Below, piece after piece: positions 28 to 57,775 of a DNA stretch of 64,000 bases. A model generated the notes under the pieces. That model searched no databases. It was not told the DNA's origin and saw nothing but the letters and a program-made list of their open reading frames with translations. This DNA comes from an uncultured Gammaproteobacteria bacterium (lineage in GTDB: Bacteria; Patescibacteriota; Microgenomatia; UBA10105; UBA927), in the NCBI GenBank assembly GCA_964527425.1, contig CAZGOA010000003.1:97048-161047 (forward strand), given 5' to 3'. Position 1 is the first letter of the stretch. Each line of letters opens with the position of its first letter. Made by a program: the position numbers and the translations under genes.

Positions 28-882
28 CTAATCGACAATAGCTTGAATACTTTTAATAGAGTCACTTAATTTATTTAGATCGTTTAGGCTGCCAAATCCA
101 TCCGGTTCTAGAATCAATAAACCAGTCCACCCGAGGCTTTTTAGGGATTTCAATATGCGCTGTTCATAATCATAAATTGATAGTGCTTCTTTACTCGTTG
201 GTTTTTCTAATTGAGTAATAAAAAATATGTTTGTATGAGGATACAGCACTTGCAACACTCTATCTGGATCTTTAAACCTAGACTGAAATCCTGACTCTGG
301 AGCTCGTAGTATATGTTTCATGCTTAAGGCAAAACCATCATAATTTCTATCCTTGGAAGCTCTAATCAAATCCTCTGCACTCTCAATTCCCCATCGATCA
401 AGTAGTTCTGGAAAAGGCTCTAAAAGTTGGTTTTGTATACTATTTAATGCTGAATGAGGATAGTGCTCTGCCCAATCACGATTCCAAATATCACCATTTC
501 GTTTGGATTGTTCGTGTAATGGATAAATTATGGCATACGTATTAGGATTTTCCCTTTGAATTGCTGCTATGGTGTTCAAAGACTGTATCCTTTCGGGGTA
601 AATAGCATAAGAAGCTGCTGCTAAAGCCGGTGAATGATGACGTAAAATGGCAAAAATATTTTCTTCTGATCGAAAACTTTGCTGAACAGAATATACGTAT
701 TCTAAAAACTTATCTGTTAATCTGTATCTCGTCGCATGGATGTGTATACCTAAGCCTCCCATTTCCTTAATCTGTGGTCCCAATTCTTTGATTGGTCGAC
801 CGCTTCCTAAAAGTGTATTTCTAAAGGTATCTGTTGCTCGTGTAGAAACTAATATTTCTGATTTAGTCATAGTGAGTTTCAA
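28..882 (-). CDS. hypothetical protein (284 aa), no confidently recognised domain
   Basis: Long ORF; 20-nt overlap with downstream pyrD-fusion ORF suggests co-transcription. No diagnostic motif found by eye. Confidence 0.45.
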   Translation of the reverse strand: MKLTMTKSEILVSTRATDTFRNTLLGSGRPIKELGPQIKEMGGLGIHIHATRYRLTDKFLEYVYSVQQSFRSEENIFAILRHHSPALAAASYAIYPERIQSLNTIAAIQRENPNTYAIIYPLHEQSKRNGDIWNRDWAEHYPHSALNSIQNQLLEPFPELLDRWGIESAEDLIRASKDRNYDGFALSMKHILRAPESGFQSRFKDPDRVLQVLYPHTNIFFITQLEKPTSKEALSIYDYEQRILKSLKSLGWTGLLILEPDGFGSLNDLNKLSDSIKSIQAIVD

Positions 883-2420: not shown

Positions 2421-3365
2421 TTACATCGATGGCTCGGAATCACTGCCGAAATATTGTTCCATTTCGTTTTTCATGGATTCCAGTTCTGCATCACTCGGCA
2501 TCATTTTTTTCAATTGTTCAAATTCTTCTCCATATCCTGAGGAATCCATCATTTGTGATGCCATCATGTCATAAATGGATTTACCTTCTGGAACTTCTTT
2601 AGTAGGACTTGGAGCTGTAACAGTAATATTGTCATAACTATATTCTGTAACTGTCGTGTATTCTCCGTATCCTGTCTGCTCTTCTCTGAGTAATAGATCA
2701 CGTGTGTCAAACCAGAATATTCTACTTGAAGCATCCTGCCCGCTGAGGACTTCTTCATATTTATGACAGGTTAAGTTGCCGCATGCTTCCTGACCAAGTG
2801 ATTTATAGGTAGTTATATTCTTTTCCATCACTTCTTCTTGGATATCTTTTGGTGAAAACGTATCTGCCAATTTTGTCAATTCAGATTGTTCTGATTTTAG
2901 TTCTTCTGCTTTCTGCATCCACCATTTGCCATCTACTTGATCTTTTAGATAGGTTGTATCACCTATCGTAATCATGTTTTGTGTTTCTTTGCCTCCCATC
3001 ATTTGAACCATTTGCATTCTGTAATCTTTTTCTGATCGATAATCTGTGGTTACTACTGTTTTACTATTGTCATCCATTCCATCTGATGAGGAGGTTATCA
3101 TCATTTTAGTCTGGCTGAATTGCTTTGCAAGATGCTTACGGATGAGTGGATCTTCTATATCTTTAAAATCGTTTTCAGTAAGTTTGGGCATCATGGCATC
3201 CCCAACCATACTTCCTAATCCTGATGCTTGCTCAGTTAGAGAAGAAATATTCTTATTTAATACTTTTGTATAGATAAAATAGCCTCCAGCTACTACTATT
3301 CCAACAGTGATCAGTAAAAAGACGATTGGTAAAGCTGGACCTTTTTTTGTCGATGAAGTTGCCAT
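2421..3365 (-). CDS. Membrane-anchored (N-terminal TM) Met-rich extracytoplasmic protein, function unknown
   Basis: N-terminal hydrophobic helix; many MM/MxxM clusters (MQMVQMMGG, DMMASQMMD, KKMMPSD). No catalytic motif. Confidence 0.5.
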   Translation of the reverse strand: MATSSTKKGPALPIVFLLITVGIVVAGGYFIYTKVLNKNISSLTEQASGLGSMVGDAMMPKLTENDFKDIEDPLIRKHLAKQFSQTKMMITSSSDGMDDNSKTVVTTDYRSEKDYRMQMVQMMGGKETQNMITIGDTTYLKDQVDGKWWMQKAEELKSEQSELTKLADTFSPKDIQEEVMEKNITTYKSLGQEACGNLTCHKYEEVLSGQDASSRIFWFDTRDLLLREEQTGYGEYTTVTEYSYDNITVTAPSPTKEVPEGKSIYDMMASQMMDSSGYGEEFEQLKKMMPSDAELESMKNEMEQYFGSDSEPSM

Positions 3366-4768: not shown

Positions 4769-5545
4769 CAAGCCCTTTACAATCGCAGCATCAAATGACC
4801 GGACAAAATATACGGAAGAAATAATTCCATACACGGCAAGCAAACCTAATGCCCTGACAAGCCAGTCATGCGGAAATTGACCTGAATTCATAATCTCTCG
4901 CATACCTTCAAAGGCATAAAGGGATGGGAAAAACTGAGCAACAACCTGCACCCAAGAGGGTAACGTTTCCAGAGGGTAATACACTGCAGAAAACGGCATC
5001 AGAATAAACCCACCTGCCCATGCTAATGATTGAATATTTGTTCCTTTACGTAAAAATAGACCCCCAACAAGAAGTCCAAAAACCCAACCGGTCAGAAGCA
5101 GGATAACTATAGGAATAAGAAACTGAGGAAATAAGGGGAAAACATTCGCTTGATACAATAATAATCCAATACTTGAAGTTACTGCAAACGTCAGCACTAA
5201 TTTCAGTATTCCCAAAAGGAATAACGACACCATCCATTCGCTACGCTTTAGTGGTGTGCTAAAAAGATTCACCAGATTTTCAGACCAAAATTCTTCGAGA
5301 ATACTAACTGTCACTTCGTACTGACCTCGCCACAACACATACCACAAAATTACTCCAAATATAATCATGGAAATATATGCGCTTGTGACATCACCAGATC
5401 GTTCAAGAGCTGCAAATGTCAAACCCCAAACAACAATATCTAATACTGGCCAATAAAAAGCGTCAACCAACTTATCGAGATTATGCCGGAAATGATACAA
5501 ATGCCGCAAAAGCATTGCATAAATTCTTCTAGCTGACATTATCAA
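4754..5545 (-). CDS. ABC-2 type transporter permease
   Basis: 6-TM hydrophobic profile; overlaps and follows the ABC ATPase gene on the same strand. Confidence 0.6.
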   Translation of the reverse strand: MIMSARRIYAMLLRHLYHFRHNLDKLVDAFYWPVLDIVVWGLTFAALERSGDVTSAYISMIIFGVILWYVLWRGQYEVTVSILEEFWSENLVNLFSTPLKRSEWMVSLFLLGILKLVLTFAVTSSIGLLLYQANVFPLFPQFLIPIVILLLTGWVFGLLVGGLFLRKGTNIQSLAWAGGFILMPFSAVYYPLETLPSWVQVVAQFFPSLYAFEGMREIMNSGQFPHDWLVRALGLLAVYGIISSVYFVRSFDAAIVKGLSHLK

Positions 5546-6467
5546 CCTCCCTTTTTGTAGATACAGACAGAAAATAATCTTCTAACGAAGGCTTATCAAT
5601 TGAGATATCCTGGTAAGAAACTCCTCTCGAACTTAAGGCATGAAGAAAATCAGGGATCTTTTCCTCTTCCATGGTTACTGTGATAAATCGTCGAGTTGCT
5701 TTACTATCTAACCCCATGGTTGAAAGGATAGATTGCACACGCTTTAAGCCGTCAGAAACATAGAGTGACACTTCACAATGAGTAAACGTTTTTGCAAGCC
5801 GTTTCGGAGTACCGGTAGCAAAAACTCGACCCTGATTCATAAAAATAACCCGGTCACATAATTCTTCAACCTCTTTCATATTATGAGAAGTGATCAATAT
5901 TGAGGTTTTGTGAGTTTTACGCATTCCAATGATAAATTCTCGTATTAAATAGGCGATATCTGGATCAAGGCTGGCTGTGGGCTCATCAAGCAATACAAGC
6001 TCAGGGTCGTTAAGAAATGATTTTGCTAAGCTAACCCGTGTTGCTTGACCTGCAGACAAATCAAGAAATCGCTTTGACAGTAAATCAATCATCTGAAATC
6101 GTTTGGCTAGTGTTTGAATCTTTTCTTCGCCATGAACGATACTATACAAATGACAGAAAACTCTTAAATTCTCATGGACTGTAAGTGACCACGGCATTTT
6201 CCCATACCCTGACATATAATTAATTTTCCCCAGTATTTCAGTTCTATTAAGCGCCATGGATTTTCCAAAAAATCGAATGTCTCCGCTTGTCGGTTTCATA
6301 AGCCCAAGCAACATTTGTATTGTTGTAGTCTTACCCGCGCCGTTAGGTCCTAAAAGGCCTACAATTTCACCTTTTTTTATAGAAAAGGAAACGTTTTTTA
6401 CTGCTGTAAAATTGGCAAAGACCTTTGTTAATTTTTTAACGGATAATACTGTTTTGTCTTGTGTCAT
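5529..6467 (-). CDS. ABC transporter ATP-binding protein
   Basis: Walker A GPNGAGKTTT, signature LSAGQATRVSLA, Walker B LVLLDEPTASLD, H-loop. Confidence 0.85.
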   Translation of the reverse strand: MTQDKTVLSVKKLTKVFANFTAVKNVSFSIKKGEIVGLLGPNGAGKTTTIQMLLGLMKPTSGDIRFFGKSMALNRTEILGKINYMSGYGKMPWSLTVHENLRVFCHLYSIVHGEEKIQTLAKRFQMIDLLSKRFLDLSAGQATRVSLAKSFLNDPELVLLDEPTASLDPDIAYLIREFIIGMRKTHKTSILITSHNMKEVEELCDRVIFMNQGRVFATGTPKRLAKTFTHCEVSLYVSDGLKRVQSILSTMGLDSKATRRFITVTMEEEKIPDFLHALSSRGVSYQDISIDKPSLEDYFLSVSTKREVDNVS

Positions 6468-6476
6468 ACGTATACG

Positions 6477-6506
6477 AAAAAACCCTCATCGAGAGGGTTT
6501 ATTGTT
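6477..6506 (-). terminator. Rho-independent terminator downstream of 16S rRNA
   Basis: Minus-strand reading: hairpin CCCTCTCGATGAGGG followed by a T-run (TTTTTTC). It lies between the 16S 3' end and the ABC ATPase start. Confidence 0.5.
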
Positions 6507-6704
6507 ATTGACAACCGAATGGTGATTGGAATGAAATCTGAGAGCGTTGTACTTCTTTGTATGTACACCACACAAAGATTGATCTGTACAACTTATTTAC
6601 GCTTCTCTTAAAGCGTGTACAAAACTGTCCTCACTCTTCAATGAGTGATCAAGACGAAGATCTTCCATCTCGATATCACTGCTTTGCGAGCTCAGTTTTA
6701 AATT

Positions 6705-8295
<1,591 letters not shown>

Positions 8296-22631: not shown

Positions 22632-22832
22632 ATGTCACCGGTTGTAAAAAATACTATTTATCAACATCGAATAAATGCAGGACTAACGCAAGAAGAATTA
22701 GCACAGAAGGTTAAGGTTACAAGACAAACGATTATTGCAATCGAAAAAGGAAATTATGCTCCATCAATAGAGCTAGCACTTAAACTCGCATTAACCTTTA
22801 AAACACGCGTGGAGGCGCTTTTTTCATTATGA
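22632..22832 (+). CDS. XRE-family helix-turn-helix transcriptional regulator (66 aa)
   Basis: LTQEELAQKVKVTRQTIIAIEKG Cro/C1-type HTH; TGaTATAAT extended -10 about 12 nt upstream of ATG (near-leaderless). Confidence 0.8.
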   Translation: MSPVVKNTIYQHRINAGLTQEELAQKVKVTRQTIIAIEKGNYAPSIELALKLALTFKTRVEALFSL

Positions 22833-23191
22833 ATAAAAATATCATGTTACAAATTGTTTCTGCAGTATTCGTTATACTTTTTCTAATACTCGCTGCAAAT
22901 CCATTTAATTTTTGGATGCCTTCACCAGTTTTAATGATGTTGGTCTGCCTTATTACAGCTACATATTTTATTTTTGCTGCTCTGGTATTTCTGGAAAGGC
23001 CTCGAGACGAACGAGAACAGCTGCATAGTTTAATTTCAGGACGCATATCATTTCTTACCGGTTCAGCAGTGCTGGCAATTGCTATTATCATTAAAGAACT
23101 ACAAGGACAACCCGATCCCTGGCTTATTGGAGCTCTGGGCACAATGATACTTACAAAAATAATCGTGAGAATAGTGTTAAATATAAAGTAA
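22829..23191 (+). CDS. Small 3-4 TM membrane protein translationally coupled to the HTH regulator
   Basis: ATGA overlap with upstream HTH gene; three to four hydrophobic helices. Confidence 0.55.
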   Translation: MNKNIMLQIVSAVFVILFLILAANPFNFWMPSPVLMMLVCLITATYFIFAALVFLERPRDEREQLHSLISGRISFLTGSAVLAIAIIIKELQGQPDPWLIGALGTMILTKIIVRIVLNIK

Positions 23192-23192
23192 A

Positions 23193-24434
23193 TTACCTGA
23201 ATGGCAACAAAGCAATGTTTTGCAACAATTCTCGAGAATCCCTGATTGAATTCAAGCCTAACACCGATTGAGTTTTCTTTTTATGGCTTTGCAAAAACCG
23301 CACTATACGATTGAGTATTCCCTGATGATCTTTAAGGCTCTGCAGCCAAACGGTTTCATCTTTACCATAATCAAGAACTATATCACCAGTTAAAAAATGA
23401 TCATGTGCAATAATGTGCTCCAGATACTGCAAGGTCATACCTGATCGACTAAATTCAGTTTCTAGAAGTTTCTCCTGTTCAGGAATAGATAACCCAGAAA
23501 GTATAAAGTCATCATAGAGTTCAGTTATTATAAATTTTGCTGTCTGTTGACGTACTATTGTATCACTAAATACTGAGTGCAGATCTGGCGATGTGTCCAT
23601 CGAGGCATCTTTGTCTTGTCTAATCAATTGATTAAAATAATCTTTTTCTATGCCTAATAAAGATGCATAAATATAACCGTTTACAACCAGTTCATTCTGC
23701 GATAACGGATAGTGGATATCTGCCTGTGGAGCATCTATTCTGTCTTGATACCATTTCCATTTTTGTTGGCGCATTTCAGGAAACACCTGCAAAAACAACT
23801 GAGTCACATCTGACTCTAAAAGCTTTGCTAATAATTCAGGCTTTTCTGCAAACAAAAACTCATCTGTTAGTAAGGCAATACCAAGACTATGGAGCAGTCG
23901 AGTACCTGACTGCATTTGACTGATATGGAGCAACTCTTCCAGGCAGATCAATGAGCAATGTCTGATTTTTTCATAATCAGTACTCACAAAAATTACTTCT
24001 GGTGGCGGCAACACTACCCGGACATACTTTTTACCATTGTACATTGAAACAACACTCGTACTATCAGCATCCAACGGCTCAGCACCTAAAAATGTGTTAA
24101 TCAACAATTGGTCAGGTTCTGTATGCCACACTTTAGCACCATTCAATCTGATTGCACGAAGAACTCCTTCATAGAACATACTTGTATCTGATTGAATTTT
24201 GAGTTGTTCTTTAATTTCCGAAGAATCAACTGCTTTGCCGTATTCTAAAACCCGATTATAAGGTACAGGCAATGTCATTTGTGAAATGAAGAACTTTAAG
24301 TCAATAAAAGCTGTGTTATCAGCGTCTTTTTCGATGCGTTCAAATAATTTTTGCACATATTCAAGTACCATCAATACATTATCAACGTCTCTGTGAATTT
24401 CTCTCTGCGAACTGTGATGAATCAGTTGCTCCAT
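23193..24434 (-). CDS. hypothetical cytoplasmic protein (413 aa)
   Basis: Long ORF without recognisable motifs; convergent with the HTH/membrane pair. Confidence 0.55.
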   Translation of the reverse strand: MEQLIHHSSQREIHRDVDNVLMVLEYVQKLFERIEKDADNTAFIDLKFFISQMTLPVPYNRVLEYGKAVDSSEIKEQLKIQSDTSMFYEGVLRAIRLNGAKVWHTEPDQLLINTFLGAEPLDADSTSVVSMYNGKKYVRVVLPPPEVIFVSTDYEKIRHCSLICLEELLHISQMQSGTRLLHSLGIALLTDEFLFAEKPELLAKLLESDVTQLFLQVFPEMRQQKWKWYQDRIDAPQADIHYPLSQNELVVNGYIYASLLGIEKDYFNQLIRQDKDASMDTSPDLHSVFSDTIVRQQTAKFIITELYDDFILSGLSIPEQEKLLETEFSRSGMTLQYLEHIIAHDHFLTGDIVLDYGKDETVWLQSLKDHQGILNRIVRFLQSHKKKTQSVLGLNSIRDSRELLQNIALLPFR

Positions 24435-24583
24435 CTGCCAATTTTACTACTATAACAATCCAAAGTACATCTGATATAACATACTTTACTTTCGTTGTGA
24501 TTTAACTATGTGTAAAGTTAACTTGACATTTATACATTATCCGTTTTACTCTATAAGAATCTTAACAATCTGAAAGGAGTTAT

Positions 24584-25096
24584 ATGAATAAAAATGTATT
24601 ACCGATTATTGGACTAGTAATTATAGGTGGAGTCGTTGGTTTTTTCCTTATGCAAAGATCTGCACCAGATTCAACCATGATGAAAAAAGATGACACAACC
24701 ATGCTAAAAGACGATTCAACGACGCCTGAAGACTCCATGATGAAACCATCTGGTGAGGCTATGCCGGAAGATGATTCCGTTATGGAAAAACCAGGAAGTT
24801 ACATTCCTTATTCTGCACAAGCGTATGCAGATGCTTCAAATCAAAAACGGGTACTGTTTTTTCACGCAACATGGTGTCCAACTTGTAAAACTGCCAATGA
24901 ACAATTTACTTCAAAAATACAAGAAATTCCTTCAAATGTTGTAATTCTCAAAACAGATTATGACAAAGAATCAGAGCTTAAAAGAAAGTACGGGATAACC
25001 TATCAACATACATTTGTACAAGTTGATGAACAAGGAAATGAAATAACCAAATGGTCAGGTGGTGATATACAAGAACTAAAAAATAATCTTTTATAA
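24584..25096 (+). CDS. Membrane-anchored thioredoxin-fold protein (extracytoplasmic thioredoxin, Etrx-like)
   Basis: N-terminal TM helix, Met/Asp-rich linker (TMMKKDDTTMLKDD...SMMKP), thioredoxin motif FHATWCPTCK. Confidence 0.75.
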   Translation: MNKNVLPIIGLVIIGGVVGFFLMQRSAPDSTMMKKDDTTMLKDDSTTPEDSMMKPSGEAMPEDDSVMEKPGSYIPYSAQAYADASNQKRVLFFHATWCPTCKTANEQFTSKIQEIPSNVVILKTDYDKESELKRKYGITYQHTFVQVDEQGNEITKWSGGDIQELKNNLL

Positions 25097-25109
25097 TCAA
25101 AGTATCTAT

Positions 25110-26858
25110 ATGATCGTGCTTATTCTCTTTGCTTTTATTGGTGGAATAATTACTATACTTTCTCCGTGTATCCTGCCTGTATTACCTATTGTTTTGTCAG
25201 GTTCATTAACTGGAGGCAGAAAACGTCCTTTAGGAATCGTCACTGGATTTATTTTAAGTTTTACCTTTTTTACGCTTTTCCTTTCTGCAATCGTTAAAGC
25301 TACCGGTATTTCAGCAGACTCACTGCGCTACATCGCGGTTTTTACGTTAATTATTTTTGGAATAAGTCTCTTTCTGCCAAAGTTTCAAGTATTGATGGAG
25401 CAAGTCTTTTCAAAACTTTCATCTTTTATTAGCAGTAAAACATCAAAAAACAATCAATCAAATGATTTCTTAAGCGGTATCCCGATTGGTGCAAGTCTTG
25501 GCCTTATCTGGACACCATGTGTTGGGCCGATAATAGCTTCTGTCATCACGCTTGCTGCGACCAGTCAGGTCACCAGTAGTGCACTACTTATTACCCTTGC
25601 ATATTCATTAGGAACTGCTTTGCCAATGCTTGCCATCACCTATGGAGGAAGGCAACTTCTTCAAAAAAATACCTGGTTACTCAACAACACAAGCAAAATT
25701 CAAAGAGGATTTGGTGTACTTATGGTACTTACCGCTATAGGAATCTTTTTTAATATAGACCGCACTGTCCAAACATACATTCTGACAGCATTCCCTCAGT
25801 ATGGTACAGGCCTTACAGCTCTTGAAGACAACGCGATCGTAAAACGCGCCTTAAATCAATTAATGCCAACTAATTCTGCAATACGACCACAAGTTGGAAA
25901 ACCGATGAATACTGAAACTTCTCTTCCACGTTTATTCAAAGCACCAGGATTTACGAATCACAGTGGAGAATGGATTAACTCTGAACCACTGCAACTGGAA
26001 GATCTAAAGGGAAATGTGGTTCTTGTAGATTTTTGGACATACACCTGTATTAACTGCATACGTACACTACCCTATTTAAGAAGATGGCATGAAACATATA
26101 AAGATACGGGGTTAATCATTGTTGGTGTGCATACACCAGAATTTGAATTTGAAAAATCACTGGCAAATGTTAAGAAAGCAGCCTCAGATTTTCAGTTAGC
26201 CTATCCAATTGTTCAAGATAACGAATTTGGCATTTGGAGAGATTACAGCAATAGATTTTGGCCTGCAAAATATTTAGTAGACAAAGACGGCTACGTCAGA
26301 TATACCCACTTTGGAGAAGGCGCCTATGATGAAACAGAACAAGCAATACAAAAACTCTTAAAAGAACGCGGATCAACAATAAATACCACTATTAAAAACC
26401 CTGAATATGATCTCCATGCAAGAACACCGGAACTGTATTTAGGTTACGAGCGCATTCAAAATCTTATTTCACCTGAACGTGTATTGAAAAATATAGTTCA
26501 ACAATATACATCACCAAATTCTCCCCCAAAAAATTATTTTGGATATGAAGGAAGTTGGACACTGAGTGGTGAACATGCAAAGCCAGACACCAATGCTTCA
26601 CTCATTCTTCACTTTGATGCAAAAGAAGTATTTCTTGTTATGCGACCGAAAGATGGTACCAAAAGCACAGTGCGGGTTTACTTAAACGATCAAATAATTT
26701 CGTCTGATATGGCTGGAGAAGATGTGCAAGATGGTATTGCTCAAATAACTGAAGATCGATTGTATAAACTGGTAAACCAACAATTTGCTGGGCCAGCAAT
26801 ACTCAAACTTGTTTTTGATGACGACAACACAGAGCTCTTTGCATTTACTTTCGGATAA
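25110..26858 (+). CDS. ccdA: CcdA/DsbD-type transmembrane electron transporter fused to a TlpA/ResA-like thioredoxin domain plus a C-terminal domain of unknown function
   Basis: N-terminal LSPCILPVLP and second TM Cys (WTPCVGP) typical of CcdA/DsbD beta-domain; periplasmic thioredoxin-like CXXC (WTYTCINCIRTLP); ~170-aa extra C-terminal region. Confidence 0.7.
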   Translation: MIVLILFAFIGGIITILSPCILPVLPIVLSGSLTGGRKRPLGIVTGFILSFTFFTLFLSAIVKATGISADSLRYIAVFTLIIFGISLFLPKFQVLMEQVFSKLSSFISSKTSKNNQSNDFLSGIPIGASLGLIWTPCVGPIIASVITLAATSQVTSSALLITLAYSLGTALPMLAITYGGRQLLQKNTWLLNNTSKIQRGFGVLMVLTAIGIFFNIDRTVQTYILTAFPQYGTGLTALEDNAIVKRALNQLMPTNSAIRPQVGKPMNTETSLPRLFKAPGFTNHSGEWINSEPLQLEDLKGNVVLVDFWTYTCINCIRTLPYLRRWHETYKDTGLIIVGVHTPEFEFEKSLANVKKAASDFQLAYPIVQDNEFGIWRDYSNRFWPAKYLVDKDGYVRYTHFGEGAYDETEQAIQKLLKERGSTINTTIKNPEYDLHARTPELYLGYERIQNLISPERVLKNIVQQYTSPNSPPKNYFGYEGSWTLSGEHAKPDTNASLILHFDAKEVFLVMRPKDGTKSTVRVYLNDQIISSDMAGEDVQDGIAQITEDRLYKLVNQQFAGPAILKLVFDDDNTELFAFTFG

Positions 26859-26879
26859 CTCTGTGAATATCAAGTACAT

Positions 26880-29117
26880 TTGATACTGTACTCCTCCTTA
26901 ATAATCTTGTTTCTTGGATTTATTGTTGAAACCGGTATACTAGTTATTATGAATCTTATCTCGATAACGAACAGAGTCATACGATATTCATTTTTTCTCC
27001 TTTTTATTCTTGTACCCCTCATCCTCACCCCGTGGAATTATGAATTGTTTGAATTTAATAAAATGCTCATAACTTACGGGCTTACGATCATTATCGTGTC
27101 TGCATGGATGGTAAAAATGAGTATTACCAGAACCATATCTATACGAAGGAGCCCACTTGATATACCAATTTTCCTTTTTGTAACCTCACAGTTAATTAGT
27201 TCACTGTTTTCGATGGATCCACATGTTTCCTGGTTTGGTTATTACAGCAGGTTTAATGGCGGAATGCTTTCAATCTTTACGTACGTTCTTTTATATTATG
27301 CTTTTTTAAGCAATATAGGTCATGAAGATGACTCTGTAAAACCTGCATTTACTAAACGCACAATTCATAATCTTTTAATTACTATACTCGGTGCTGCAGT
27401 TGTTGTTTCGTTCTATGGAATACTCCAACGACTTGGTATTGATAAATCTATATGGGTACAAGATGTTCAAAATCGTATTTTTTCAACACTCGGCCAGCCT
27501 AATTGGTTAGCTGCATATATCGGAGCACTTATTCCAGTGAGTCTTGCGTTTGCACTTTCTTCTATTAACAAAGATAAACGAGGTATATTTAATAATTCGT
27601 ATCTTATTTGGATAACGATATCTACTGTTTTTTTTGTAACCCTCCTATTTACAAAATCCCGTTCGGGCATTCTAGGTTTCGGCGTAGCATTACTTATTTT
27701 CTTCACTTTGCTTCTCTTAAAACATACTAATAAAAAAAGTGTTGTCACAATGCTTTTCATTCCTTTTATTCTATTTTTTCTCCTAGCTGGGTTCTTTAAA
27801 ACAAGTATTCCAACGTATGACAAATATTTTACTCTTGATGGTGTACGACAATTCATTTCGTCTTCTAAAACACAGGAAGCACCTCAACAACCAGAAGTTC
27901 AAACAACTACCTTAATTGAATCTGGTGGAACAGAATCAGGAACAATACGCAAATACGTATGGCAAGGAGCTTTAACGGCATGGCGTTCCAGTCAAAAAGC
28001 GTTTCTGATCGGTACAGGTACAGAGACATTCGCGTTTGCTTTTTTCAGGCACAAAGGAATTGAACATAACCTTACAAGTGAATGGGATTTTCTGTATAAC
28101 AAGGCACATAACGAATATCTCAACTACCTGACAACAACAGGCATAGTAGGATTTCTCTCCTACATGGCAATCATATTCACTTTTATTTCGTGGTTTAAAT
28201 TAAAAACAATCCCGGTAATAAAAAAGTATCATCAACAAGATATTTCCATAATAGAAATCGCCTTATTCTCAGGCTGGTTTTCTATACTCATTACGAATTT
28301 CTTTGGATTTTCGGTCGTTATCATACAACTATTTTTATTCTTATTTCCTGCATTTGCATTTGCGCTCATTCAAAAAGACACAAGAAAGATTCATATAGAA
28401 ATGAAAAAACTTCCTTTTGGCGTTTCGGCGGGCTTAAGTTTTGTTGGACTCCTTATTGGATTTATTTGTTTAGGGTATATAGCGGTTTATTGGTTCGCAG
28501 ATACCTATTTTGCACTCGGACAACGCCAATCCCGCCAGGGACAATTGGGTGAAGCATATAAATCACTCAGCCAAGCACTCTTACTGCGGCCATCAGAACC
28601 CATATATTATGATGAATTGGGAGTTACACTCAGCGGCTTATCTATTGCCGCAATGGAATCAGGAGATGCAACGACTGCATCATCATTAGCTCAACAAAGC
28701 CTACTAGCCAGTGACAAAGCACTCGCAATCTCTCCAAATAATGTGAATTTTTGGAAATCTAGAACAAAAATATATTTTGGCTTTTCAGAGGTTACTCAAG
28801 AATTTGTCGTTGCTGCAATTGAATCATTGCAAAAAGCCTTAGTATTATCCCCCTTTGATCCCAAAATTACCTATAATTTAGCAGTACTTTACGGAAGAAT
28901 TGGTGAAAATGAAAAAGCGATAGAATTACTAAAACAGACAATCCAACTCAAAAAAAATTATAGAGATGCCTATTATGCACTGTACATTTTTTATCAAGAA
29001 GTAAAACAACCCAGTTTGGCCCGCGCAATATTAGAAGATTACCTTAAAACTGTAGATCCAAACGATAAAGATTTCAAAGAAAGAATCGCACAACCCATTC
29101 CTACAAATACTCAATAA
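26880..29117 (+). CDS. O-antigen ligase (Wzy_C)-like polytopic membrane protein with C-terminal TPR repeats
   Basis: Wzy_C loop motif YNKAHNEYLNYLTTTGIVGF; ~12 TM; C-terminal ~200 aa with TPR-like repeats (AYYALYIFY..., LAVLYGRIGENEKAIELL). Confidence 0.6.
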   Translation: MILYSSLIILFLGFIVETGILVIMNLISITNRVIRYSFFLLFILVPLILTPWNYELFEFNKMLITYGLTIIIVSAWMVKMSITRTISIRRSPLDIPIFLFVTSQLISSLFSMDPHVSWFGYYSRFNGGMLSIFTYVLLYYAFLSNIGHEDDSVKPAFTKRTIHNLLITILGAAVVVSFYGILQRLGIDKSIWVQDVQNRIFSTLGQPNWLAAYIGALIPVSLAFALSSINKDKRGIFNNSYLIWITISTVFFVTLLFTKSRSGILGFGVALLIFFTLLLLKHTNKKSVVTMLFIPFILFFLLAGFFKTSIPTYDKYFTLDGVRQFISSSKTQEAPQQPEVQTTTLIESGGTESGTIRKYVWQGALTAWRSSQKAFLIGTGTETFAFAFFRHKGIEHNLTSEWDFLYNKAHNEYLNYLTTTGIVGFLSYMAIIFTFISWFKLKTIPVIKKYHQQDISIIEIALFSGWFSILITNFFGFSVVIIQLFLFLFPAFAFALIQKDTRKIHIEMKKLPFGVSAGLSFVGLLIGFICLGYIAVYWFADTYFALGQRQSRQGQLGEAYKSLSQALLLRPSEPIYYDELGVTLSGLSIAAMESGDATTASSLAQQSLLASDKALAISPNNVNFWKSRTKIYFGFSEVTQEFVVAAIESLQKALVLSPFDPKITYNLAVLYGRIGENEKAIELLKQTIQLKKNYRDAYYALYIFYQEVKQPSLARAILEDYLKTVDPNDKDFKERIAQPIPTNTQ

Positions 29118-30784: not shown

Positions 30785-33400
30785 ATGAAACATGCATATG
30801 CTCTTGATATAAAAGAAATATTGTTACAAATAAAAGTAGACGAGAAAAATGGATTATCTGAGCATGAACGGGAAACACGTCTTCAAAAATACGGTCCAAA
30901 TAAACTCCCTGAAGCACCCAAGCCGAGTATTATTCAGGATTTTGTAGATCAACTTAAAAACCCTATCGTGCTGCTCCTTCTTGGCACATCAGTTATCGCA
31001 GGATTAACACACCGCGGAGTAGAATCAGCACTTATTATCAGCATAGTTTTATTCATGGCGGGTATCGGTGTGTTTCTTCAAAAACAATCAGAAAAATCAC
31101 TCGAAAAACTCAAAACACTGCAAAGTAATACAACCACGGTACTTATAGATGGAAAGAATACGACAGTACCAACAGAATCTATTGTCCCGGGAGATATTCT
31201 CGTACTCAATGAAGGTGACAAAGTAGCAGCTGATGCCAGAGTAATTGAAAGTCGGGCAGGAAAAATAGATGAAGCTCCCCTTACTGGAGAATCACTGCCA
31301 GTCAGCAAACATAACAAACTTCTCAAAGAAGAAACAGCACTGGGAGATCGAATTAATATGGTATTTTCTGGAACATCTGTAGTTGCAGGAACCATAAAAG
31401 CAGTTGTTATCTCTACCGGTGCAGACACTGAATTAGGCAAAATCACAACCTATTTAAATGCACAAGACACAAGGCTCACCCCACTTCAAAAAGAGCTGGA
31501 ACATGTCGGACATATATTATTAATTTCGTGCCTTATTCTTGTAGGTATTATTTTGTTGGTCTTAACTGTTTACCATAATGAAAGTTTTATTGATTCACTC
31601 CTGACGACTATTTCTCTTGCCATCGCCATAGTCCCTGAAGGACTCAGCGCTGTTATGACTGTTACTCTCGCATTAGCAGTAAAAGAAATGGTGAAAAAGA
31701 AAGTAATTGTCAAAAAATTACTTGCTGCAGAAGGACTTGGATCTATTACTCATATAGCTACTGATAAAACAGGAACTATTACAGAAGGACGCATGCACGT
31801 TGTCAATATATATTTAAGTGAAAAACTCTATAAAGCCACAGACGATACCTTAAAAAAAGATACAAACTACAAACGATTAATTGACATTATTAAGTTCTGT
31901 AACAACAACAAGGGACCTACAGAACAGGCAATGGTTGCGTTTTTAGATAAGCACGGATACAGCTATGAATTAGAAGGACGAATGGTTGAATATATTTTTA
32001 ATAGTGATCACAAGCGAATGTCTGTAGTCAGAAAACATGAAGGACAAATGAGATTATTTAGTAAAGGTGCCCCCGATATTTTAATCCCCTTGTGTACGAC
32101 TGATATTACAGGAAATACATCCTTTACAGATAATGAAAAACAAAAAGCCCTCAAAATGGCAGAACACTTAGCCTCACAAGGATTTAGAGTATTGGCATTA
32201 GCCGATAAAGTGCATAACGGAACAGTTGATCCTGAAAAACGAACTGAGACAGAAGATAATCTCACCTTCATTGGGCTTGTAGCGCTTATGGATCCTTTGC
32301 GAGAAACAGTTGATGAAACAGTCACTGCTCTAAAACGTGCAGGTGTTACACCGTTAATGATTACAGGTGACCATCCTGCTATTGCCAGATATATAGCACT
32401 TGAAGCAGGAATAATCACCAATGAACATACAGAACTCGTCTTAACAGGGAACGATCTTGATGATCTGTTTGCCAGAAGTCAACTGCCTGATGCACAAAAA
32501 ACACTTCAGGCAGCTCGCGTCTTTGCAAGAGTGCGTCCTGAACACAAAGTCATGATTGTAGAAATGTACCAGCAATTAGGATTTCGTATAGCTATGACAG
32601 GCGACGGTGTCAATGATGCAGCAGCAATTAAAAGAGCAGATGTTGGTATAGCAATGAGTAATGGTATGGACGTTACTAGAGATATTTCAGATGTAGTTAT
32701 TACCGGTGCCTATGATGCTCTTATACGTGCAGTAGCAATAGGCAGAACAGTTAAATTACGCACACAACTGTATTTGCAATATCTCCTGTCAGGAAATGCT
32801 GTAGAAGTAGGAGTATTTTTAGTAGCCGTTTTTTTAAACTTACCTAACCCTTTAACACCGGTCATGTTACTGATAATAAATTTGCTTACAGATGCATTAC
32901 CTGCAATGGCAATGGCGGTAGAACCAGAAGATCCAGATATAACAAAAAGAAAAGTAACAAAGAAAACAGAACGAATTATGTCACCTCAAGTGATGCGGGG
33001 AATTCTTATTCAAGGTCTAACAGCAACAGCGGTAATCTCGTATGTTTTCTACAAATTTTTGCCTGAAGGTATCGAATATGCACAAACTATTGTGTTTACG
33101 TTCTTTGTATTTCATGAATCAATTCGTGGATTTACAGCAAGAAGTTTCACAAAATCTGTTTTTCAGTATGGAATATTTACAAATTATTTGATGAATCTGG
33201 CAATTCCATTGTCTATGGGAATTTGGGTTGTTATTGTATATTTGATACCTCATGTATTTAATATGGTCCCCCTTTCACCTACTATACTTTTTGAGTTATT
33301 ACTACTTTCAATTATCCCAGCAGTTATAGAAGAAGCGACAAAATTAGTAAACCGAATGCTAATCAAACGAAAACAGCATGAGCATTTTGATAGTATTTAA
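30785..33400 (+). CDS. Cation-transporting P-type ATPase (P2-type, Ca2+/Mg2+-like)
   Basis: DKTGTIT phosphorylation site, TM4 PEGL, TGDHPAIA, GDGVNDAAAIKRADVGIAM hinge; 871 aa with 10 TM. Confidence 0.85.
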   Translation: MKHAYALDIKEILLQIKVDEKNGLSEHERETRLQKYGPNKLPEAPKPSIIQDFVDQLKNPIVLLLLGTSVIAGLTHRGVESALIISIVLFMAGIGVFLQKQSEKSLEKLKTLQSNTTTVLIDGKNTTVPTESIVPGDILVLNEGDKVAADARVIESRAGKIDEAPLTGESLPVSKHNKLLKEETALGDRINMVFSGTSVVAGTIKAVVISTGADTELGKITTYLNAQDTRLTPLQKELEHVGHILLISCLILVGIILLVLTVYHNESFIDSLLTTISLAIAIVPEGLSAVMTVTLALAVKEMVKKKVIVKKLLAAEGLGSITHIATDKTGTITEGRMHVVNIYLSEKLYKATDDTLKKDTNYKRLIDIIKFCNNNKGPTEQAMVAFLDKHGYSYELEGRMVEYIFNSDHKRMSVVRKHEGQMRLFSKGAPDILIPLCTTDITGNTSFTDNEKQKALKMAEHLASQGFRVLALADKVHNGTVDPEKRTETEDNLTFIGLVALMDPLRETVDETVTALKRAGVTPLMITGDHPAIARYIALEAGIITNEHTELVLTGNDLDDLFARSQLPDAQKTLQAARVFARVRPEHKVMIVEMYQQLGFRIAMTGDGVNDAAAIKRADVGIAMSNGMDVTRDISDVVITGAYDALIRAVAIGRTVKLRTQLYLQYLLSGNAVEVGVFLVAVFLNLPNPLTPVMLLIINLLTDALPAMAMAVEPEDPDITKRKVTKKTERIMSPQVMRGILIQGLTATAVISYVFYKFLPEGIEYAQTIVFTFFVFHESIRGFTARSFTKSVFQYGIFTNYLMNLAIPLSMGIWVVIVYLIPHVFNMVPLSPTILFELLLLSIIPAVIEEATKLVNRMLIKRKQHEHFDSI

Positions 33401-42459: not shown

Positions 42460-42969
42460 ATGCATCGGAATACGTTTTATTTCATTGTTATCTTAGGAAT
42501 TTTTGCCGCAATCGTTGTAGGCGTAAACATTGGAAGAAGTGCTTTACCCAATACTAACCAAACGCAAACGACTACACCAACACAAGCACTTACTACTCCA
42601 ACTCCCGAACTTGTTATGTACCAAAGTAAGCAATGCGGAATTTCTTTTTCCTACCCTGATAAATTCAATAAAATAGATATTGAGACAGGTGGAGCGACAC
42701 TAGTGAATAAAGAAAACACTAATGAATCAATAATCTTAGTTTGCCAGAAAGATATTCCCAGAATTCCATTAACAGATGACAAAATTGAGCAAAGAGCTAT
42801 TGGCACTGTCTCTGCATTTCTTTATCACGATACCTCACAAAAAGATGGAACACCACTAGATAAACTTATTTTTACACATCCAGCGTTAAAAAAAGATGTT
42901 TACATTGCTGGATATGGAGAAACATTTAATAATATTATTTCATCCTTATCGTTATATTCCTCATTATAG
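42460..42969 (+). CDS. Membrane-anchored secreted hypothetical protein
   Basis: N-terminal TM helix, T/Q-rich linker, 2 Cys. Confidence 0.45.
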   Translation: MHRNTFYFIVILGIFAAIVVGVNIGRSALPNTNQTQTTTPTQALTTPTPELVMYQSKQCGISFSYPDKFNKIDIETGGATLVNKENTNESIILVCQKDIPRIPLTDDKIEQRAIGTVSAFLYHDTSQKDGTPLDKLIFTHPALKKDVYIAGYGETFNNIISSLSLYSSL

Positions 42970-43479
42970 TTCAACATTCTCGTCTGGAATAAACTTTAAC
43001 GCGGTCGCATTTATACAGTATCGCTTTCCAGTTGGCTCTGGTCCATCATCAAACAGATGTCCTAAATGTCCACCACATTTTCTACCAATTACTTCAATGC
43101 GCTTTACACCTAAACTATAGTCTTCTCGTAATACTATAGCGTTCTCGTCTATTGGCGCCCAAAAACTTGGCCATCCTGTACCAGAATCATATTTTTGTTC
43201 TGAGCGAAATACAGGCTCATTACAATCAGCAGTAACATATGTCCCACTTTCATGATTAGTTAACATTTCTGGATGACTAAAAGGCTTTTCTGTTCCTTTT
43301 TCTCTGAGGATGTAATATTGTTCTTGCGTGAGTAGTTCCTTCCATTCTTTATCTGTTTTTAGAATCTCTGCTGTATACTCATCTGTTTTTATCTCAATCT
43401 GATTATATTGTTGTAACAATATAAATCCTAACGCAGAGAATATACCCATGACCGATAATACGAGAACAAGACGTTTCAT
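42964..43479 (-). CDS. msrB: Peptide-methionine (R)-S-oxide reductase MsrB with N-terminal signal/anchor (extracytoplasmic)
   Basis: MsrB motifs GTGWPSF, GGHLGHLFDDGPEPTGKRYCINATAL; N-terminal hydrophobic MKRLVLVLSVMGIFSALGFILL. Confidence 0.85.
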   Translation of the reverse strand: MKRLVLVLSVMGIFSALGFILLQQYNQIEIKTDEYTAEILKTDKEWKELLTQEQYYILREKGTEKPFSHPEMLTNHESGTYVTADCNEPVFRSEQKYDSGTGWPSFWAPIDENAIVLREDYSLGVKRIEVIGRKCGGHLGHLFDDGPEPTGKRYCINATALKFIPDENVEL

Positions 43480-57694: not shown

Positions 57695-57775
57695 AATACT
57701 AGAGGCTGTGCTACCTGTTGTGAAATTATTGTCTTGTCTATATCCTACAGGTATAATTTGGTATTATTAGTGCAC

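What the first reader, a model, noticed from the sequence alone, without database searches (positions are those of the whole stretch)
24584..26858. Extracytoplasmic thiol-redox set: anchored thioredoxin + CcdA–thioredoxin fusion (with exported MsrB at 42964-43479)
Two adjacent genes encode a membrane-anchored thioredoxin (WCPTC) with a Met/Asp-rich linker, and a CcdA/DsbD-type transmembrane electron conduit. The conduit is fused to a periplasmic TlpA-like CXXC domain plus an extra ~170-aa domain. The window also encodes an MsrB with an N-terminal signal-anchor. This mirrors the CcdA–Etrx–MsrAB2 surface methionine-sulfoxide repair pathway of Streptococcus pneumoniae. Here CcdA and a thioredoxin are fused, and no MsrA or c-type cytochrome maturation genes are nearby. 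Together with the VKOR (oxidative) module, the cell appears to run both oxidative and reductive extracytoplasmic thiol pathways.
Basis: partly seen in the sequence, partly recalled or inferred. Interest (0 to 1): 0.55.

Follow-up and report, generated by a model that had tools for sequence, protein, structure and literature searches.

The report
Surface methionine-repair electron relay, atypical thioredoxin
Two adjacent genes in this ultra-small (Patescibacteria-type) bacterium most likely carry reducing power across the membrane to repair oxidised surface proteins, a known kind of system, but one partner is an undescribed thioredoxin type that has lost a residue kept by almost all thioredoxins.

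Summary
24584-25096 encodes an N-terminally anchored thioredoxin (WCPTC) with a Met/Asp-rich tether. 25110-26858 encodes a 6-TM CcdA domain, a TlpA-like CXXC domain and a 144-aa C-terminal domain.

The fusion is not new. It is an orthologue of DipZ (M. tuberculosis Rv2874, PDB 2HYX, E 2e-52, same CINC motif), and thousands of homologues share the architecture.

The anchored thioredoxin is atypical. The near-universal cis-proline is replaced by His142 (motif TYQHTF) in 120/120 close homologues. No solved structure or curated model is specific to this subfamily.

In 75 of 79 species-level loci this "His-Trx" gene is directly followed by a CcdA-type gene: DipZ in Patescibacteria, stand-alone CcdA in Deinococcus.

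In six loci Msr follows on the same strand. Two carry His-Trx, DipZ and an anchored MsrB. Four carry His-Trx followed by a single CcdA-MsrA-MsrB fusion protein.

The positive-inside rule places both CXXC domains outside the cell. The window holds no Ccm/Res gene, no CXXCH motif and no msrA.

Verdict: a new variant of a known pathway, of moderate interest.

The parts
24584..25096 (+). Anchored atypical thioredoxin ('His-Trx'), 170 aa. TM/signal-anchor aa 5-23 (nt 24596-24652). Met/Asp-rich tether aa 24-69 (nt 24653-24790). Trx domain aa 70-170 (nt 24791-25093). W-C98-P-T-C101 at nt 24875-24886. His142 at the cis-Pro position at nt 25007-25009.
   Evidence: - Pfam Thioredoxin E 1.3e-10.
- Hydropathy.
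- Gapless alignment to TrxA-type sequences places H142 at the cis-Pro position.
- AF2 model pLDDT 96.7 with a classical Trx fold; H73 (domain numbering) sits just before strand 74-78.
- Foldseek best hits are classical thioredoxins, TM about 0.75 and identity 30% or less.
- GAAAGGAG ribosome-binding site 6 nt upstream of the ATG.
25110..26858 (+). DipZ-type electron conduit, 582 aa. 6-TM CcdA domain aa 1-217 (nt 25110-25760) with C20 (25167-25169) and C137 (25518-25520). TlpA/ResA-like domain aa 277-420 (nt 25938-26369) with C313-I-N-C316 (26046-26057) and a retained W384-P385 cis-Pro. Thioredoxin_10/CBM-like domain aa 439-582 (nt 26424-26855).
   Evidence: - Pfam.
- PDB 2hyx/5cyy DipZ E 2e-52; CcdA 5vkv E 8e-10.
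- More than 7,800 homologues with the same Pfam architecture, named DipZ by NCBI.
- All four Cys and CINC invariant in 120/120 homologues.
- Topology.
42964..43479 (-). Anchored methionine-R-sulfoxide reductase MsrB, 171 aa. Signal-anchor aa 4-22. SelR domain aa 50-165. Catalytic C155 (RYCINA). No Cys before GWPSF, so it is a 1-Cys type. C86 and C135 are remnants of the Zn site. This is the proposed client of the relay and is unlinked in this window.
   Evidence: - Pfam and NCBIfam.
- 107/120 closest homologues carry an N-terminal hydrophobic segment.
- C86, C135 and C155 invariant.
- Orthologues 61-63% identical sit directly after DipZ in L086 and L089.
22632..22832 (+). Small HTH_3 (XRE-type) regulator, 66 aa. 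Frequent upstream companion of the His-Trx/DipZ pair.
   Evidence: - Pfam HTH_3 E 5.5e-14.
- Present immediately upstream of the pair in L004, L006 and L008.
- A homologue lies within 5 kb of the His-Trx gene in 32 of 80 genome loci.
22829..23191 (+). 120-aa multi-pass membrane protein overlapping the HTH gene by 4 nt. Conserved partner of the HTH gene and of the cassette. Function unknown.
   Evidence: - Orthologues (124 aa) in L004, L006 and L008.
- tblastn matches in 30 of 80 loci.
- No Pfam family above threshold.

Best explanation
The two genes form an operon for a reductive, extracytoplasmic thiol relay. Its main client is methionine sulfoxide reductase on the cell surface.

Proposed electron path:
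1. Electrons come from the cytoplasmic thioredoxin system.
2. They cross the membrane through the Cys20/Cys137 pair of the 6-TM CcdA domain of DipZ.
3. Outside, they are taken up by two CXXC modules. One is DipZ's own tethered TlpA-like domain (C313-I-N-C316), held next to a non-redox CBM-like domain. The other is the separately anchored 'His-Trx' (C98-P-T-C101).
4. The His-Trx is most likely the dedicated shuttle that re-reduces the membrane-anchored 1-Cys MsrB (catalytic C155). MsrB in turn repairs Met-R-sulfoxide in surface proteins, possibly including the Met-rich tethers themselves. The DipZ ectodomain probably serves other oxidised cysteines or passes electrons on.

Shown: domain content, conserved cysteines, predicted topology, the near-obligate His-Trx/CcdA gene pairing, and Msr operon and fusion linkage in relatives.

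Inferred: the direction of electron flow, which Trx module reduces MsrB, and the role of His142 and the Met-rich tether.
For: 1. DipZ orthology, with all four redox cysteines invariant.
2. N-out/C-out topology: 10 K/R in the proposed inside loops against 2 outside. The His-Trx and MsrB both have positively charged N-termini followed by one hydrophobic segment. Non-CPR family members carry classical cleavable signal peptides.
3. Gene pairing: the His-Trx gene is followed on the same strand, mostly within 30 nt, by a CcdA-type gene in 75 of 79 assessable species loci. Of these, 52 are full DipZ, 6 are CcdA+TlpA and 17 are CcdA only, including Deinococcus.
4. Msr linkage: L086 (HTH, membrane protein, His-Trx, DipZ, anchored MsrB, with MsrB starting 12 nt after the DipZ stop) and L089 (about 6 nt). 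L084, L069, L091 and L096 carry His-Trx followed by one ORF of about 600 aa. Pfam confirms DsbD_TM+PMSR+SelR for L084 and L069. I estimate that one msr gene in a genome of about 1 Mb would fall inside a 10-kb window in roughly 1 of 80 loci. Six were observed, all directly adjacent.
5. In the CcdA-MsrAB fusion lineages the His-Trx is the only Trx-fold partner encoded in the cluster, which points to it as the Msr reductant.
6. Anchored MsrB is the rule in this radiation: 107/120 homologues.
7. No cytochrome c machinery or CXXCH motif in the window. Patescibacteria are reported to lack electron transport chains (PMC7507113, title).
8. Experimentally established precedent for CcdA to Etrx to MsrAB2 (PMC3914529).
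Against: - In this window MsrB is 16 kb away on the other strand, in an unrelated neighbourhood.
- Only 6 of 80 related loci show the same-strand Msr linkage. MsrB contexts sampled from the MsrB side (L009-L014) show no DipZ or Trx.
- No msrA is seen in the window.
- The His-Trx lacks the cis-Pro that forms the substrate-binding groove of every characterised Msr-reducing thioredoxin (Etrx1/2 keep it). It may therefore not act as an ordinary disulfide reductase.
- Some family members are fused to a cupredoxin, and three loci have Cu-type genes nearby.
- No biochemical data exist for any member.
Confidence: 0.68

Rival explanations
1. Metal (copper) handling. Replacing cis-Pro with His next to the CXXC creates a Cys2-His site, as in Sco proteins, so the His-Trx binds Cu(I) or another metal. 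The Met-rich tether captures Cu(I). DipZ keeps the cysteines reduced, as TlpA does for ScoI or ScsB for ScsC/D. The function would be copper sequestration, tolerance or delivery at the cell surface.
For: - The cis-Pro position holds no Pro in any of the 194 domains of the 141 top family representatives: His 132, Thr 26, Ser 25, other residues 11. It is His in all 120 close homologues.
- The cis-Pro is reported to prevent metal binding by the CXXC thiolates (Su et al. 2007, cited in PMC2665069 and PMC2757866).
- Acidic MM-repeat tethers are recurrent: 41 of 139 representatives have 8% Met or more outside the domain, against 1% inside.
- One representative (P0434) fuses the domain to a plastocyanin/azurin-type copper-binding domain.
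- CopA-type ATPases or an HMA-DsbD_2 protein lie within 5 kb in L075, L081 and L088.
- Scs proteins link DsbD-type reductases to copper stress, and CcScsC binds Cu(I) tightly (PMC10907172, PMC8900818).
Against: - The motif is CXXC, not the CXXXC of Sco, and there is no SCO1-SenC Pfam match.
- No copper gene lies next to the pair in the window. The P-type ATPase at 30785-33400 has a PEGL motif, not CPC.
- Three of 80 loci with Cu genes nearby is about the chance level.
- Met-rich tethers are absent from many members, including those linked to Msr.
- The Msr operons and the CcdA-MsrAB fusions are more specific evidence for the Msr link.
- This model does not exclude Msr reduction.
Confidence: 0.15
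2. General envelope disulfide reductase/isomerase system (DsbD-DsbC/DsbG-like). It corrects wrong disulfides or sulfenylated cysteines made by the VKOR-based oxidative pathway. Msr is only an occasional client.
For: - VKOR with a complete cysteine set is present in the same window.
- Cys-rich secreted proteins occur in the window, for example 57734-60430 with 16 Cys.
- Most loci (about 73 of 80) have the pair without msr nearby.
- DipZ carries its own TlpA-like domain plus a CBM-like domain that could target wall-associated substrates (Rv2874 description in PMC7479077).
- DsbD and ScsB are known multi-client hubs (PMC3322552).
Against: - Nothing specific links the pair to VKOR or to particular Cys-rich substrates.
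- The only recurrent functional neighbours or fusion partners found are MsrA and MsrB.
- This model overlaps with the best explanation rather than excluding it.
Confidence: 0.14
3. Ordinary System II cytochrome c maturation, as the database name 'cytochrome c biogenesis protein DipZ' implies. The Trx would be the ResA/CcsX-like apocytochrome reductase.
For: - Name given by NCBI and JGI to homologues.
- WCPTC is also the CcmG motif (my own knowledge).
- Weak DsbE and ResA profile matches, far below the curated cut-offs.
Against: - No ResB/ResC/Ccm family, no WWD motif and no CXXCH motif in 64 kb.
- None appear among the Pfam-annotated genes of the neighbourhoods of the pair that were inspected (L004-L008, L015-L017).
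- The lineage is reported to lack electron transport chains (PMC7507113).
- In M. tuberculosis the CCM thioredoxin is CcsX/Rv3673c (PMC3781833).
Confidence: 0.03

Closest known systems
DipZ / Rv2874 of Mycobacterium tuberculosis (ectodomain structures 2HYX, 5CYY; Goldstone et al. 2016, cited in PMC7479077)
   Same: - Same three-part architecture: CcdA-type TM domain, Trx-like domain, CBM-like C-terminal domain.
- Same C-I-N-C active site.
- E 2e-52 over aa 279-521.
   Different: - The window protein is shorter (582 aa; Rv2874 residue numbering reaches about 545 within the Trx-like domain).
- It comes from an organism type reported to lack respiratory chains.
- It is preceded by a His-Trx gene.
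- I found no established physiological role for Rv2874. Its mycobacterial neighbours, recalled from memory as the fasciclin proteins MPT70/MPT83, differ. One family member (P0415) does fuse fasciclin to this Trx type.
CcdA1/2-Etrx1/2-MsrAB2 surface repair pathway of Streptococcus pneumoniae (PMC3914529), with the related S. gordonii and Fusobacterium nucleatum eTrx-CcdA-MsrAB clusters (PMC7034828, PMC12288474)
   Same: - Same logic: CcdA conduit, surface-anchored Trx-fold protein, exported Msr.
- Operon linkage of the three is seen in relatives (L086, L089).
- DipZ's fused domain matches the Etrx structures 2yp6 and 4hqs at E about 1e-6.
   Different: - Here CcdA is fused to the Etrx-like domain.
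- The free Trx is a classical-fold thioredoxin (PF00085), not TlpA-like, and has His in place of the cis-Pro that Etrx1/2 retain.
- It has a membrane anchor rather than a lipoprotein anchor.
- Only MsrB is present (no MsrA in the window), and it is unlinked in this genome.
PilB (Trx-MsrA-MsrB) with DsbD in Neisseria, and MsrAB1+CcdA in F. nucleatum (PMC12288474)
   Same: An envelope Msr is supplied by a DsbD/CcdA-type conduit, and domain fusions bring the relay components together.
   Different: In PilB the Trx is fused to MsrAB. In the relatives found here the conduit itself is fused to MsrA-MsrB (a DsbD_TM+PMSR+SelR protein) and the Trx stays separate.
ScsB-ScsC/ScsD copper-stress system and TlpA-ScoI (PMC10907172, PMC3322552, PMC8900818)
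   Same: A DsbD-family reductase feeds membrane-anchored or periplasmic Trx-fold proteins. Some of these bind Cu(I). The Met-rich and Cys2-His features here are suggestive of metal contact.
   Different: No sequence-level membership, no copper-responsive genes adjacent, and the CXXC proteins of Scs retain cis-Pro (my own knowledge).
System II cytochrome c maturation (CcdA-ResA/CcsX-ResBC)
   Same: A CcdA-type conduit with a membrane-anchored CXXC protein encoded together.
   Different: No ResB/ResC and no heme-binding motifs in the window. The Trx type is different.

Membership tests
DipZ (Rv2874-type CcdA-Trx-CBM fusion) | N-terminal CcdA/DsbD_TM domain with one conserved Cys in each of two TM helices | tested here: met
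   - PF02683 E 2.5e-15 over aa 3-212.
- Match to CcdA structure 5vkv.
- C20 (SPC) and C137 (TPC) invariant in 120/120 homologues.
DipZ (Rv2874-type CcdA-Trx-CBM fusion) | Extracytoplasmic TlpA/ResA-like domain with CXXC (C-I-N-C in Rv2874) | tested here: met
   - AhpC-TSA/Redoxin at aa 277-405.
- C313-I-N-C316, identical to the Rv2874 motif.
- W-P385 cis-Pro retained.
DipZ (Rv2874-type CcdA-Trx-CBM fusion) | C-terminal Thioredoxin_10 (CBM-like) domain | tested here: met
   PF17991 E 4.3e-31, covering profile positions 1-142 of 142. The alignment to 2hyx continues into this domain.
DipZ (Rv2874-type CcdA-Trx-CBM fusion) | Transmembrane electron transfer from cytoplasmic thioredoxin | not testable with these tools
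   Inferred from homology only.
CcdA-Etrx-Msr extracytoplasmic methionine sulfoxide repair pathway | CcdA-type conduit plus surface-exposed CXXC thioredoxin-fold protein encoded together | tested here: met
   The genes are 13 nt apart. The pairing is conserved in 75 of 79 loci. Predicted topology places the domains outside.
CcdA-Etrx-Msr extracytoplasmic methionine sulfoxide repair pathway | Exported or anchored Msr enzyme | tested here: met
   MsrB has an N-terminal signal-anchor. MsrA was not found in the window.
CcdA-Etrx-Msr extracytoplasmic methionine sulfoxide repair pathway | Genetic linkage of msr with ccdA/trx | tested here: inconclusive
   Not met in the window (16 kb apart, opposite strand). 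Met in the relatives L086 and L089, and through CcdA-MsrA-MsrB fusions in L069, L084, L091 and L096.
CcdA-Etrx-Msr extracytoplasmic methionine sulfoxide repair pathway | The Trx partner is TlpA/ResA-like and has the conserved cis-Pro | tested here: not met
   The free Trx is PF00085-type with His142 at the cis-Pro position. The fused DipZ domain does meet this feature.
CcdA-Etrx-Msr extracytoplasmic methionine sulfoxide repair pathway | Demonstrated electron transfer from Trx to Msr | not testable with these tools
   Needs biochemistry.
Classical thioredoxin (TrxA) | WCGPC active site, cis-Pro76, buried Asp26, cytoplasmic location | tested here: not met
   - WCPTC instead of WCGPC.
- His at the cis-Pro position and Phe at the Asp26 position.
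- N-terminal anchor.
- TIGR01068 scores 33.6 bits against a cut-off of 96.8.
System II cytochrome c maturation | ResB/ResC (CcsBA) and CXXCH apocytochromes in the genome | tested here: not met
   Absent from the 64-kb window. Genome-wide absence cannot be tested here.
Sco/SenC copper chaperones | SCO1-SenC fold with CXXXC plus a distal His | tested here: not met
   No SCO1-SenC Pfam hit. The motif is CXXC. The fold matches classical thioredoxins.

The most novel reading that the evidence does not exclude
The 'His-Trx' proteins (W-C-P-x-C ... T-Y-Q-H-T-F, cis-Pro replaced by His/Thr/Ser) are a previously unrecognised class of extracytoplasmic thioredoxin-fold proteins. They are dedicated partners of CcdA/DipZ conduits. 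Their altered active site adapts them either to direct reduction of Msr sulfenic acids or to metal-assisted chemistry. Through them the widespread but functionally unassigned DipZ family, mis-named 'cytochrome c biogenesis', would gain a physiological role in surface methionine repair in organisms that have no cytochromes.
Probability: 0.4. Interest if true: 0.62.

Novelty: new variant of a known kind. Interest (0 to 1): 0.5.

Why it matters
- Patescibacteria are reduced, largely epibiotic cells with little stress-defence machinery and no respiration. A conserved membrane relay devoted to repairing oxidised surface methionines tells us what these cells must protect.
- The result corrects a misleading annotation ('cytochrome c biogenesis protein DipZ') that is propagated over thousands of genomes.
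- It suggests a testable function for the DipZ family, whose structural prototype is in M. tuberculosis.
- It identifies a natural thioredoxin subfamily lacking the cis-proline. That residue is reported to be more conserved than the CXXC itself (PMC2757866) and to keep metals off the active site. The subfamily is therefore a ready-made system for asking what this residue is for.
- Cultured Deinococcus species carry the His-Trx/CcdA pair, so genetics is feasible.

Tried and rejected
- Searched for a curated family specific to either protein. NCBIfam gave only sub-threshold ResA, DsbD and TrxA matches. Pfam gave only generic domains.
- Searched PDB by sequence and by fold for a close relative of the His-Trx. 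Only classical thioredoxins at 30% identity or less were found.
- Looked at MsrB neighbourhoods from the MsrB side (P0151, P0189). There was no DipZ or Trx, so linkage from that direction led nowhere.
- L061 at first looked like a seventh Msr-linked locus. Its MsrB is divergent, lacks an anchor and keeps the Zn-type CXXC motifs, so it is a cytoplasmic type and was not counted.
- The promoter/terminator scan of 24300-27300 gave nothing above the shuffled expectation.
- Literature searches for CcdA + copper + methionine-rich, for CPR + Msr + thioredoxin, and for His at the cis-Pro position found no description of this subfamily. Goldstone 2016 is not held in the library.
- The search for a VKOR-DHODH fusion returned only ferroptosis papers.
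- The Sco-like idea was rejected as a membership claim (CXXC, no SCO1-SenC match) and kept only as a mechanistic rival.
- The correct residue is His142.
Full report
OBSERVATION

The two ORFs are as described. 24584-25096 (+) encodes 170 aa. 25110-26858 (+) encodes 582 aa and starts 13 nt downstream.

The first ORF has a strong ribosome-binding site, GAAAGGAG. It has one hydrophobic segment at aa 5-23. A 46-residue tether follows, with 7 Met and 12 Asp/Glu. The protein ends in a thioredoxin domain (PF00085, E 1.3e-10) with W-C98-P-T-C101.

The second ORF is DsbD_TM (aa 3-212), then AhpC-TSA/Redoxin (aa 277-405, C313-I-N-C316), then Thioredoxin_10 (aa 439-582, E 4e-31).

MsrB at 42964-43479 (-) is a bona fide SelR/TIGR00357 protein with an N-terminal signal-anchor.

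The window is from a Patescibacteria (Microgenomates-type) genome. The nearest named homologues are from Gottesman-, Woese-, Levy-, Roizman- and Amesbacteria. GC content is about 37%. A 16S rRNA gene stands alone at 6707-8295.

THE FUSED PROTEIN IS DipZ

- Its best solved relative is the ectodomain of M. tuberculosis DipZ/Rv2874 (2hyx and 5cyy, E 2e-52 over aa 279-521). The TM part matches the 6-TM CcdA structures 5vkv and 2n4x.
- Rv2874's active site is C437-I-N-C440 (PMC7479077), the same CINC as here. Its ectodomain is a Trx-like domain followed by a carbohydrate-binding-module-like domain (Goldstone 2016, as cited there).
NCBI calls them 'cytochrome c biogenesis protein DipZ'.
- In 120 homologues the four cysteines (C20, C137, C313, C316), the CINC motif and the W384-P385 cis-Pro of the TlpA-like domain are invariant or nearly so. 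The C-terminal domain has no cysteine.

The CcdA-thioredoxin fusion is therefore a known, widespread family and not a feature peculiar to this locus.

TOPOLOGY

Six hydrophobic segments are found. With N-out/C-out, the three inside loops carry 10 Lys/Arg and the outside loops plus the first 20 residues after TM6 carry 2. This agrees with the 6-TM CcdA fold.

The Trx and MsrB each have a positively charged N-terminus, one hydrophobic helix and then the domain. Family members from other phyla carry classical cleavable signal peptides instead.

THE ANCHORED THIOREDOXIN IS ATYPICAL

A gapless alignment from the CXXC through 'KYGI' puts His142 (K-Y-G-I-T-Y-Q-H-T-F) where E. coli TrxA has cis-Pro76 (K-Y-G-I-R-G-I-P-T-L). 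HMMER aligns it the same way to insect thioredoxin.

Conservation:
- All 120 closest homologues have His there: 119 at the fixed offset, and one in the same motif shifted by two residues. They carry the motif (I/V)-T-Y-Q-H-T-F-V, and 100 have WCPTC.
- Further invariant positions are T-D-Y-D and K-W-x-G-G.
- A profile search of 1.84 billion representatives gives 837 clusters at E 1e-30 or better.
- Among the top 141 representatives the position is His 132, Thr 26, Ser 25 or another residue (11) across 194 domains, and never Pro.

Structure:
- AlphaFold gives a confident classical thioredoxin fold (pLDDT 96.7), with the His immediately before the third strand.
- Foldseek finds only ordinary thioredoxins, at 30% identity or less.
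- No NCBIfam model reaches its cut-off.

Context from the literature:
- The cis-Pro is described as more conserved across the Trx fold than the CXXC. It is thought to shape the substrate groove and to prevent metal binding by the thiolates (PMC2757866, PMC2665069).
- Etrx1 and Etrx2 of S. pneumoniae both keep it (PMC3914529).

Other family features:
- Acidic Met-Met repeat tethers are recurrent but not universal. 41 of 139 representatives have 8% Met or more outside the domain, against about 1% inside.
- Many members have two or three tandem copies of the domain.
- Occasional fusion partners are a plastocyanin-type copper domain, CHRD, RskA_C, DUF6799, and SLH+fasciclin.

COMPARATIVE GENOMICS

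On independent contigs and in relatives 58-60% identical, the cassette is HTH_3, then a 124-aa membrane protein, then His-Trx, then DipZ. One relative has DipZ alone. In the window a 413-aa minus-strand ORF with no family is inserted between the membrane protein and the Trx.

Scanning one genome per species (185,579 species) with the His-Trx profile found 527 genomes. The best 80 loci are Patescibacteria of many classes plus Deinococcus, including cultured strains.

In 75 of 79 assessable loci the His-Trx gene is followed on the same strand, usually within 30 nt, by a CcdA-type gene. These are 52 full DipZ, 6 CcdA+TlpA-like and 17 CcdA only. Searches show stand-alone 245-aa CcdA genes.

This near-obligate pairing across two phyla indicates that the His-Trx is a direct partner of the CcdA module.

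LINK TO Msr

tblastn with the window's MsrB found Msr next to the pair in seven loci.

- L086 and L089 (a Levybacterium): an anchored MsrB, 61-63% identical to the window's, starts 12 nt and about 6 nt after the DipZ stop. L086 reads HTH, membrane protein, His-Trx, DipZ, MsrB.
- L084, L069, L091 and L096: the His-Trx is followed by one ORF of about 600 aa. Pfam confirms DsbD_TM+PMSR+SelR for L084 and L069, a CcdA-MsrA-MsrB fusion.
- L061: the MsrB is divergent and of cytoplasmic type, so it was discounted.

My rough expectation for a single msr gene falling in a 10-kb window of a genome of about 1 Mb is one locus in 80. Six directly adjacent, same-strand cases, four of them domain fusions, are strong guilt-by-association evidence.

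Anchored MsrB is the norm in this radiation, at 107 of 120 homologues. The window's MsrB has no Cys before GWPSF, so it is a 1-Cys type. It retains two invariant Cys (C86, C135) at former Zn-ligand positions. My inference is that these form a structural disulfide or act as alternative resolving residues.

MECHANISM

The best-supported mechanism is as follows.
1. The cytoplasmic thioredoxin system reduces the C20/C137 pair of the DipZ TM domain.
2. Electrons pass outside to DipZ's own CINC domain and to the His-Trx.
3. The His-Trx re-reduces anchored MsrB, which repairs surface Met-R-sulfoxide.

The case for the His-Trx as the Msr-specific shuttle is that it is the only Trx-fold protein in the CcdA-MsrAB fusion clusters. 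The roles of His142, of the Met-rich tether (oxidant sink or Cu(I) capture) and of the CBM-like domain are inferred, not shown.

RIVALS

- Metal handling. In favour: the loss of cis-Pro, the Cys2-His geometry, the Met-rich tethers, one cupredoxin fusion, and CopA/HMA genes near three loci. Against: the Cu-gene neighbours are at chance level, the tethers are variable, and there is no Sco-type signature.
- General DsbD-like hub. This is compatible with the main model and partly overlaps it.
- Cytochrome c maturation. It is disfavoured. There is no Res/Ccm family, no WWD motif and no CXXCH motif in 64 kb, none among the Pfam-annotated genes of the neighbourhoods inspected, and the lineage is reported to lack electron transport chains (PMC7507113). 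Genome-wide absence could not be tested.

THE OXIDATIVE SIDE

ORF 863-2353 (-) has a VKOR domain with the loop Cys pair (C35, C44) and C113-L-Y-C116. It is fused to a class-2, quinone-dependent dihydroorotate dehydrogenase (NF003652, 279.5 bits against a cut-off of 267). No DsbA-like partner was seen in the window. The statement that both oxidative and reductive pathways exist is plausible. The VKOR module is unusual in itself and deserves separate study.

NOVELTY AND SCORE

The pathway type (CcdA, extracellular Trx, Msr) and the DipZ architecture are both known. Three things appear to be new, in that I found no description or curated model:
1. The His-for-cis-Pro thioredoxin subfamily and its near-obligate pairing with CcdA/DipZ.
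2. The CcdA-MsrA-MsrB fusion proteins.
3. The resulting functional hypothesis for DipZ in cytochrome-free bacteria.

I rate this a new variant of a known kind, with interest 0.5.

Noticed in passing
window 863-2353 (-): A 496-aa fusion of a complete VKOR domain (aa 8-130; loop Cys35/Cys44 and C113-L-Y-C116) with a quinone-dependent class-2 dihydroorotate dehydrogenase (aa 150-493, NF003652 above its cut-off). Both are quinone reducers, in a lineage said to lack respiratory chains. No literature on such a fusion was found.
   Followed up: partly
L084 4765-6603, L069 1783-3528, L091 about 5308-7116, L096 about 447-2252: Single ORFs of about 600 aa combining a CcdA TM domain, MsrA (GCFWC) and MsrB. 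Each lies directly downstream of a His-Trx gene. Pfam DsbD_TM+PMSR+SelR is confirmed for two of them. In L084 a glutaredoxin and an ArsR-type regulator lie just upstream.
   Followed up: partly
window 6707-8295 (-): A complete bacterial 16S rRNA gene (1322 bits) with no 23S or 5S rRNA anywhere in the 64 kb, so the rRNA genes are unlinked. This explains the GC peak at 6-8 kb.
   Followed up: no
window 23193-24434 (-): A 413-aa ORF with no Pfam family sits on the opposite strand between the conserved HTH/membrane-protein pair and the Trx-DipZ pair. Those four genes are contiguous in the relatives L004, L006, L008 and L086. The ORF is also present on contig L001.
   Followed up: no
window 22632-23191 (+): A small XRE-type HTH gene overlaps a 120-aa multi-pass membrane protein gene by 4 nt. 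Homologues of both lie within 5 kb of the His-Trx gene in about 30 of 80 genomes, directly upstream in the loci inspected, and may form a regulatory or sensor pair. Function unknown.
   Followed up: partly
proteins P0434, P0419, P0498, P0440, P0478, P0457, P0415, P0361-P0369: His-Trx family members occur as two or three tandem domains. Some are fused to a plastocyanin/azurin copper domain, CHRD, RskA_C, DUF6799, or SLH+fasciclin. Fasciclin proteins flank dipZ in M. tuberculosis, as I recall from memory. Acidic Met-Met repeat tethers recur immediately before the domain.
   Followed up: partly
window 42964-43479 (-), MsrB residues C86 and C135: MsrB keeps only one Cys of each former Zn-binding CXXC pair, and both are invariant in 120 anchored homologues. 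This suggests that a disulfide replaces the Zn site in the exported enzyme, or that the pair acts as a non-canonical resolving Cys.
   Followed up: partly
window 2421-3365 (-): A 314-aa N-terminally anchored protein with no family hit carries several Met-Met/acidic stretches (for example MQMVQMMGG and MMASQMMDS) that resemble the Trx tether. It may be another Met-rich surface protein and an Msr substrate.
   Followed up: no
window 57734-60430 (+): An 898-aa ORF with an N-terminal hydrophobic segment and 16 cysteines has no Pfam match. It is a candidate disulfide-rich surface substrate of the VKOR and DipZ pathways.
   Followed up: no
L075 8538-9878, L081 1560-3851, L088 6129-8483: Copper-type genes lie within 5 kb of the His-Trx/DipZ pair in three of 80 genomes. 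Two are CopA-like P1B ATPases with GMHCxSC and CPC motifs. One, judged by eye from its sequence, looks like an HMA + DsbD_2-like TM + cupredoxin-like protein. The count is about chance level but is relevant to the metal hypothesis.
   Followed up: partly
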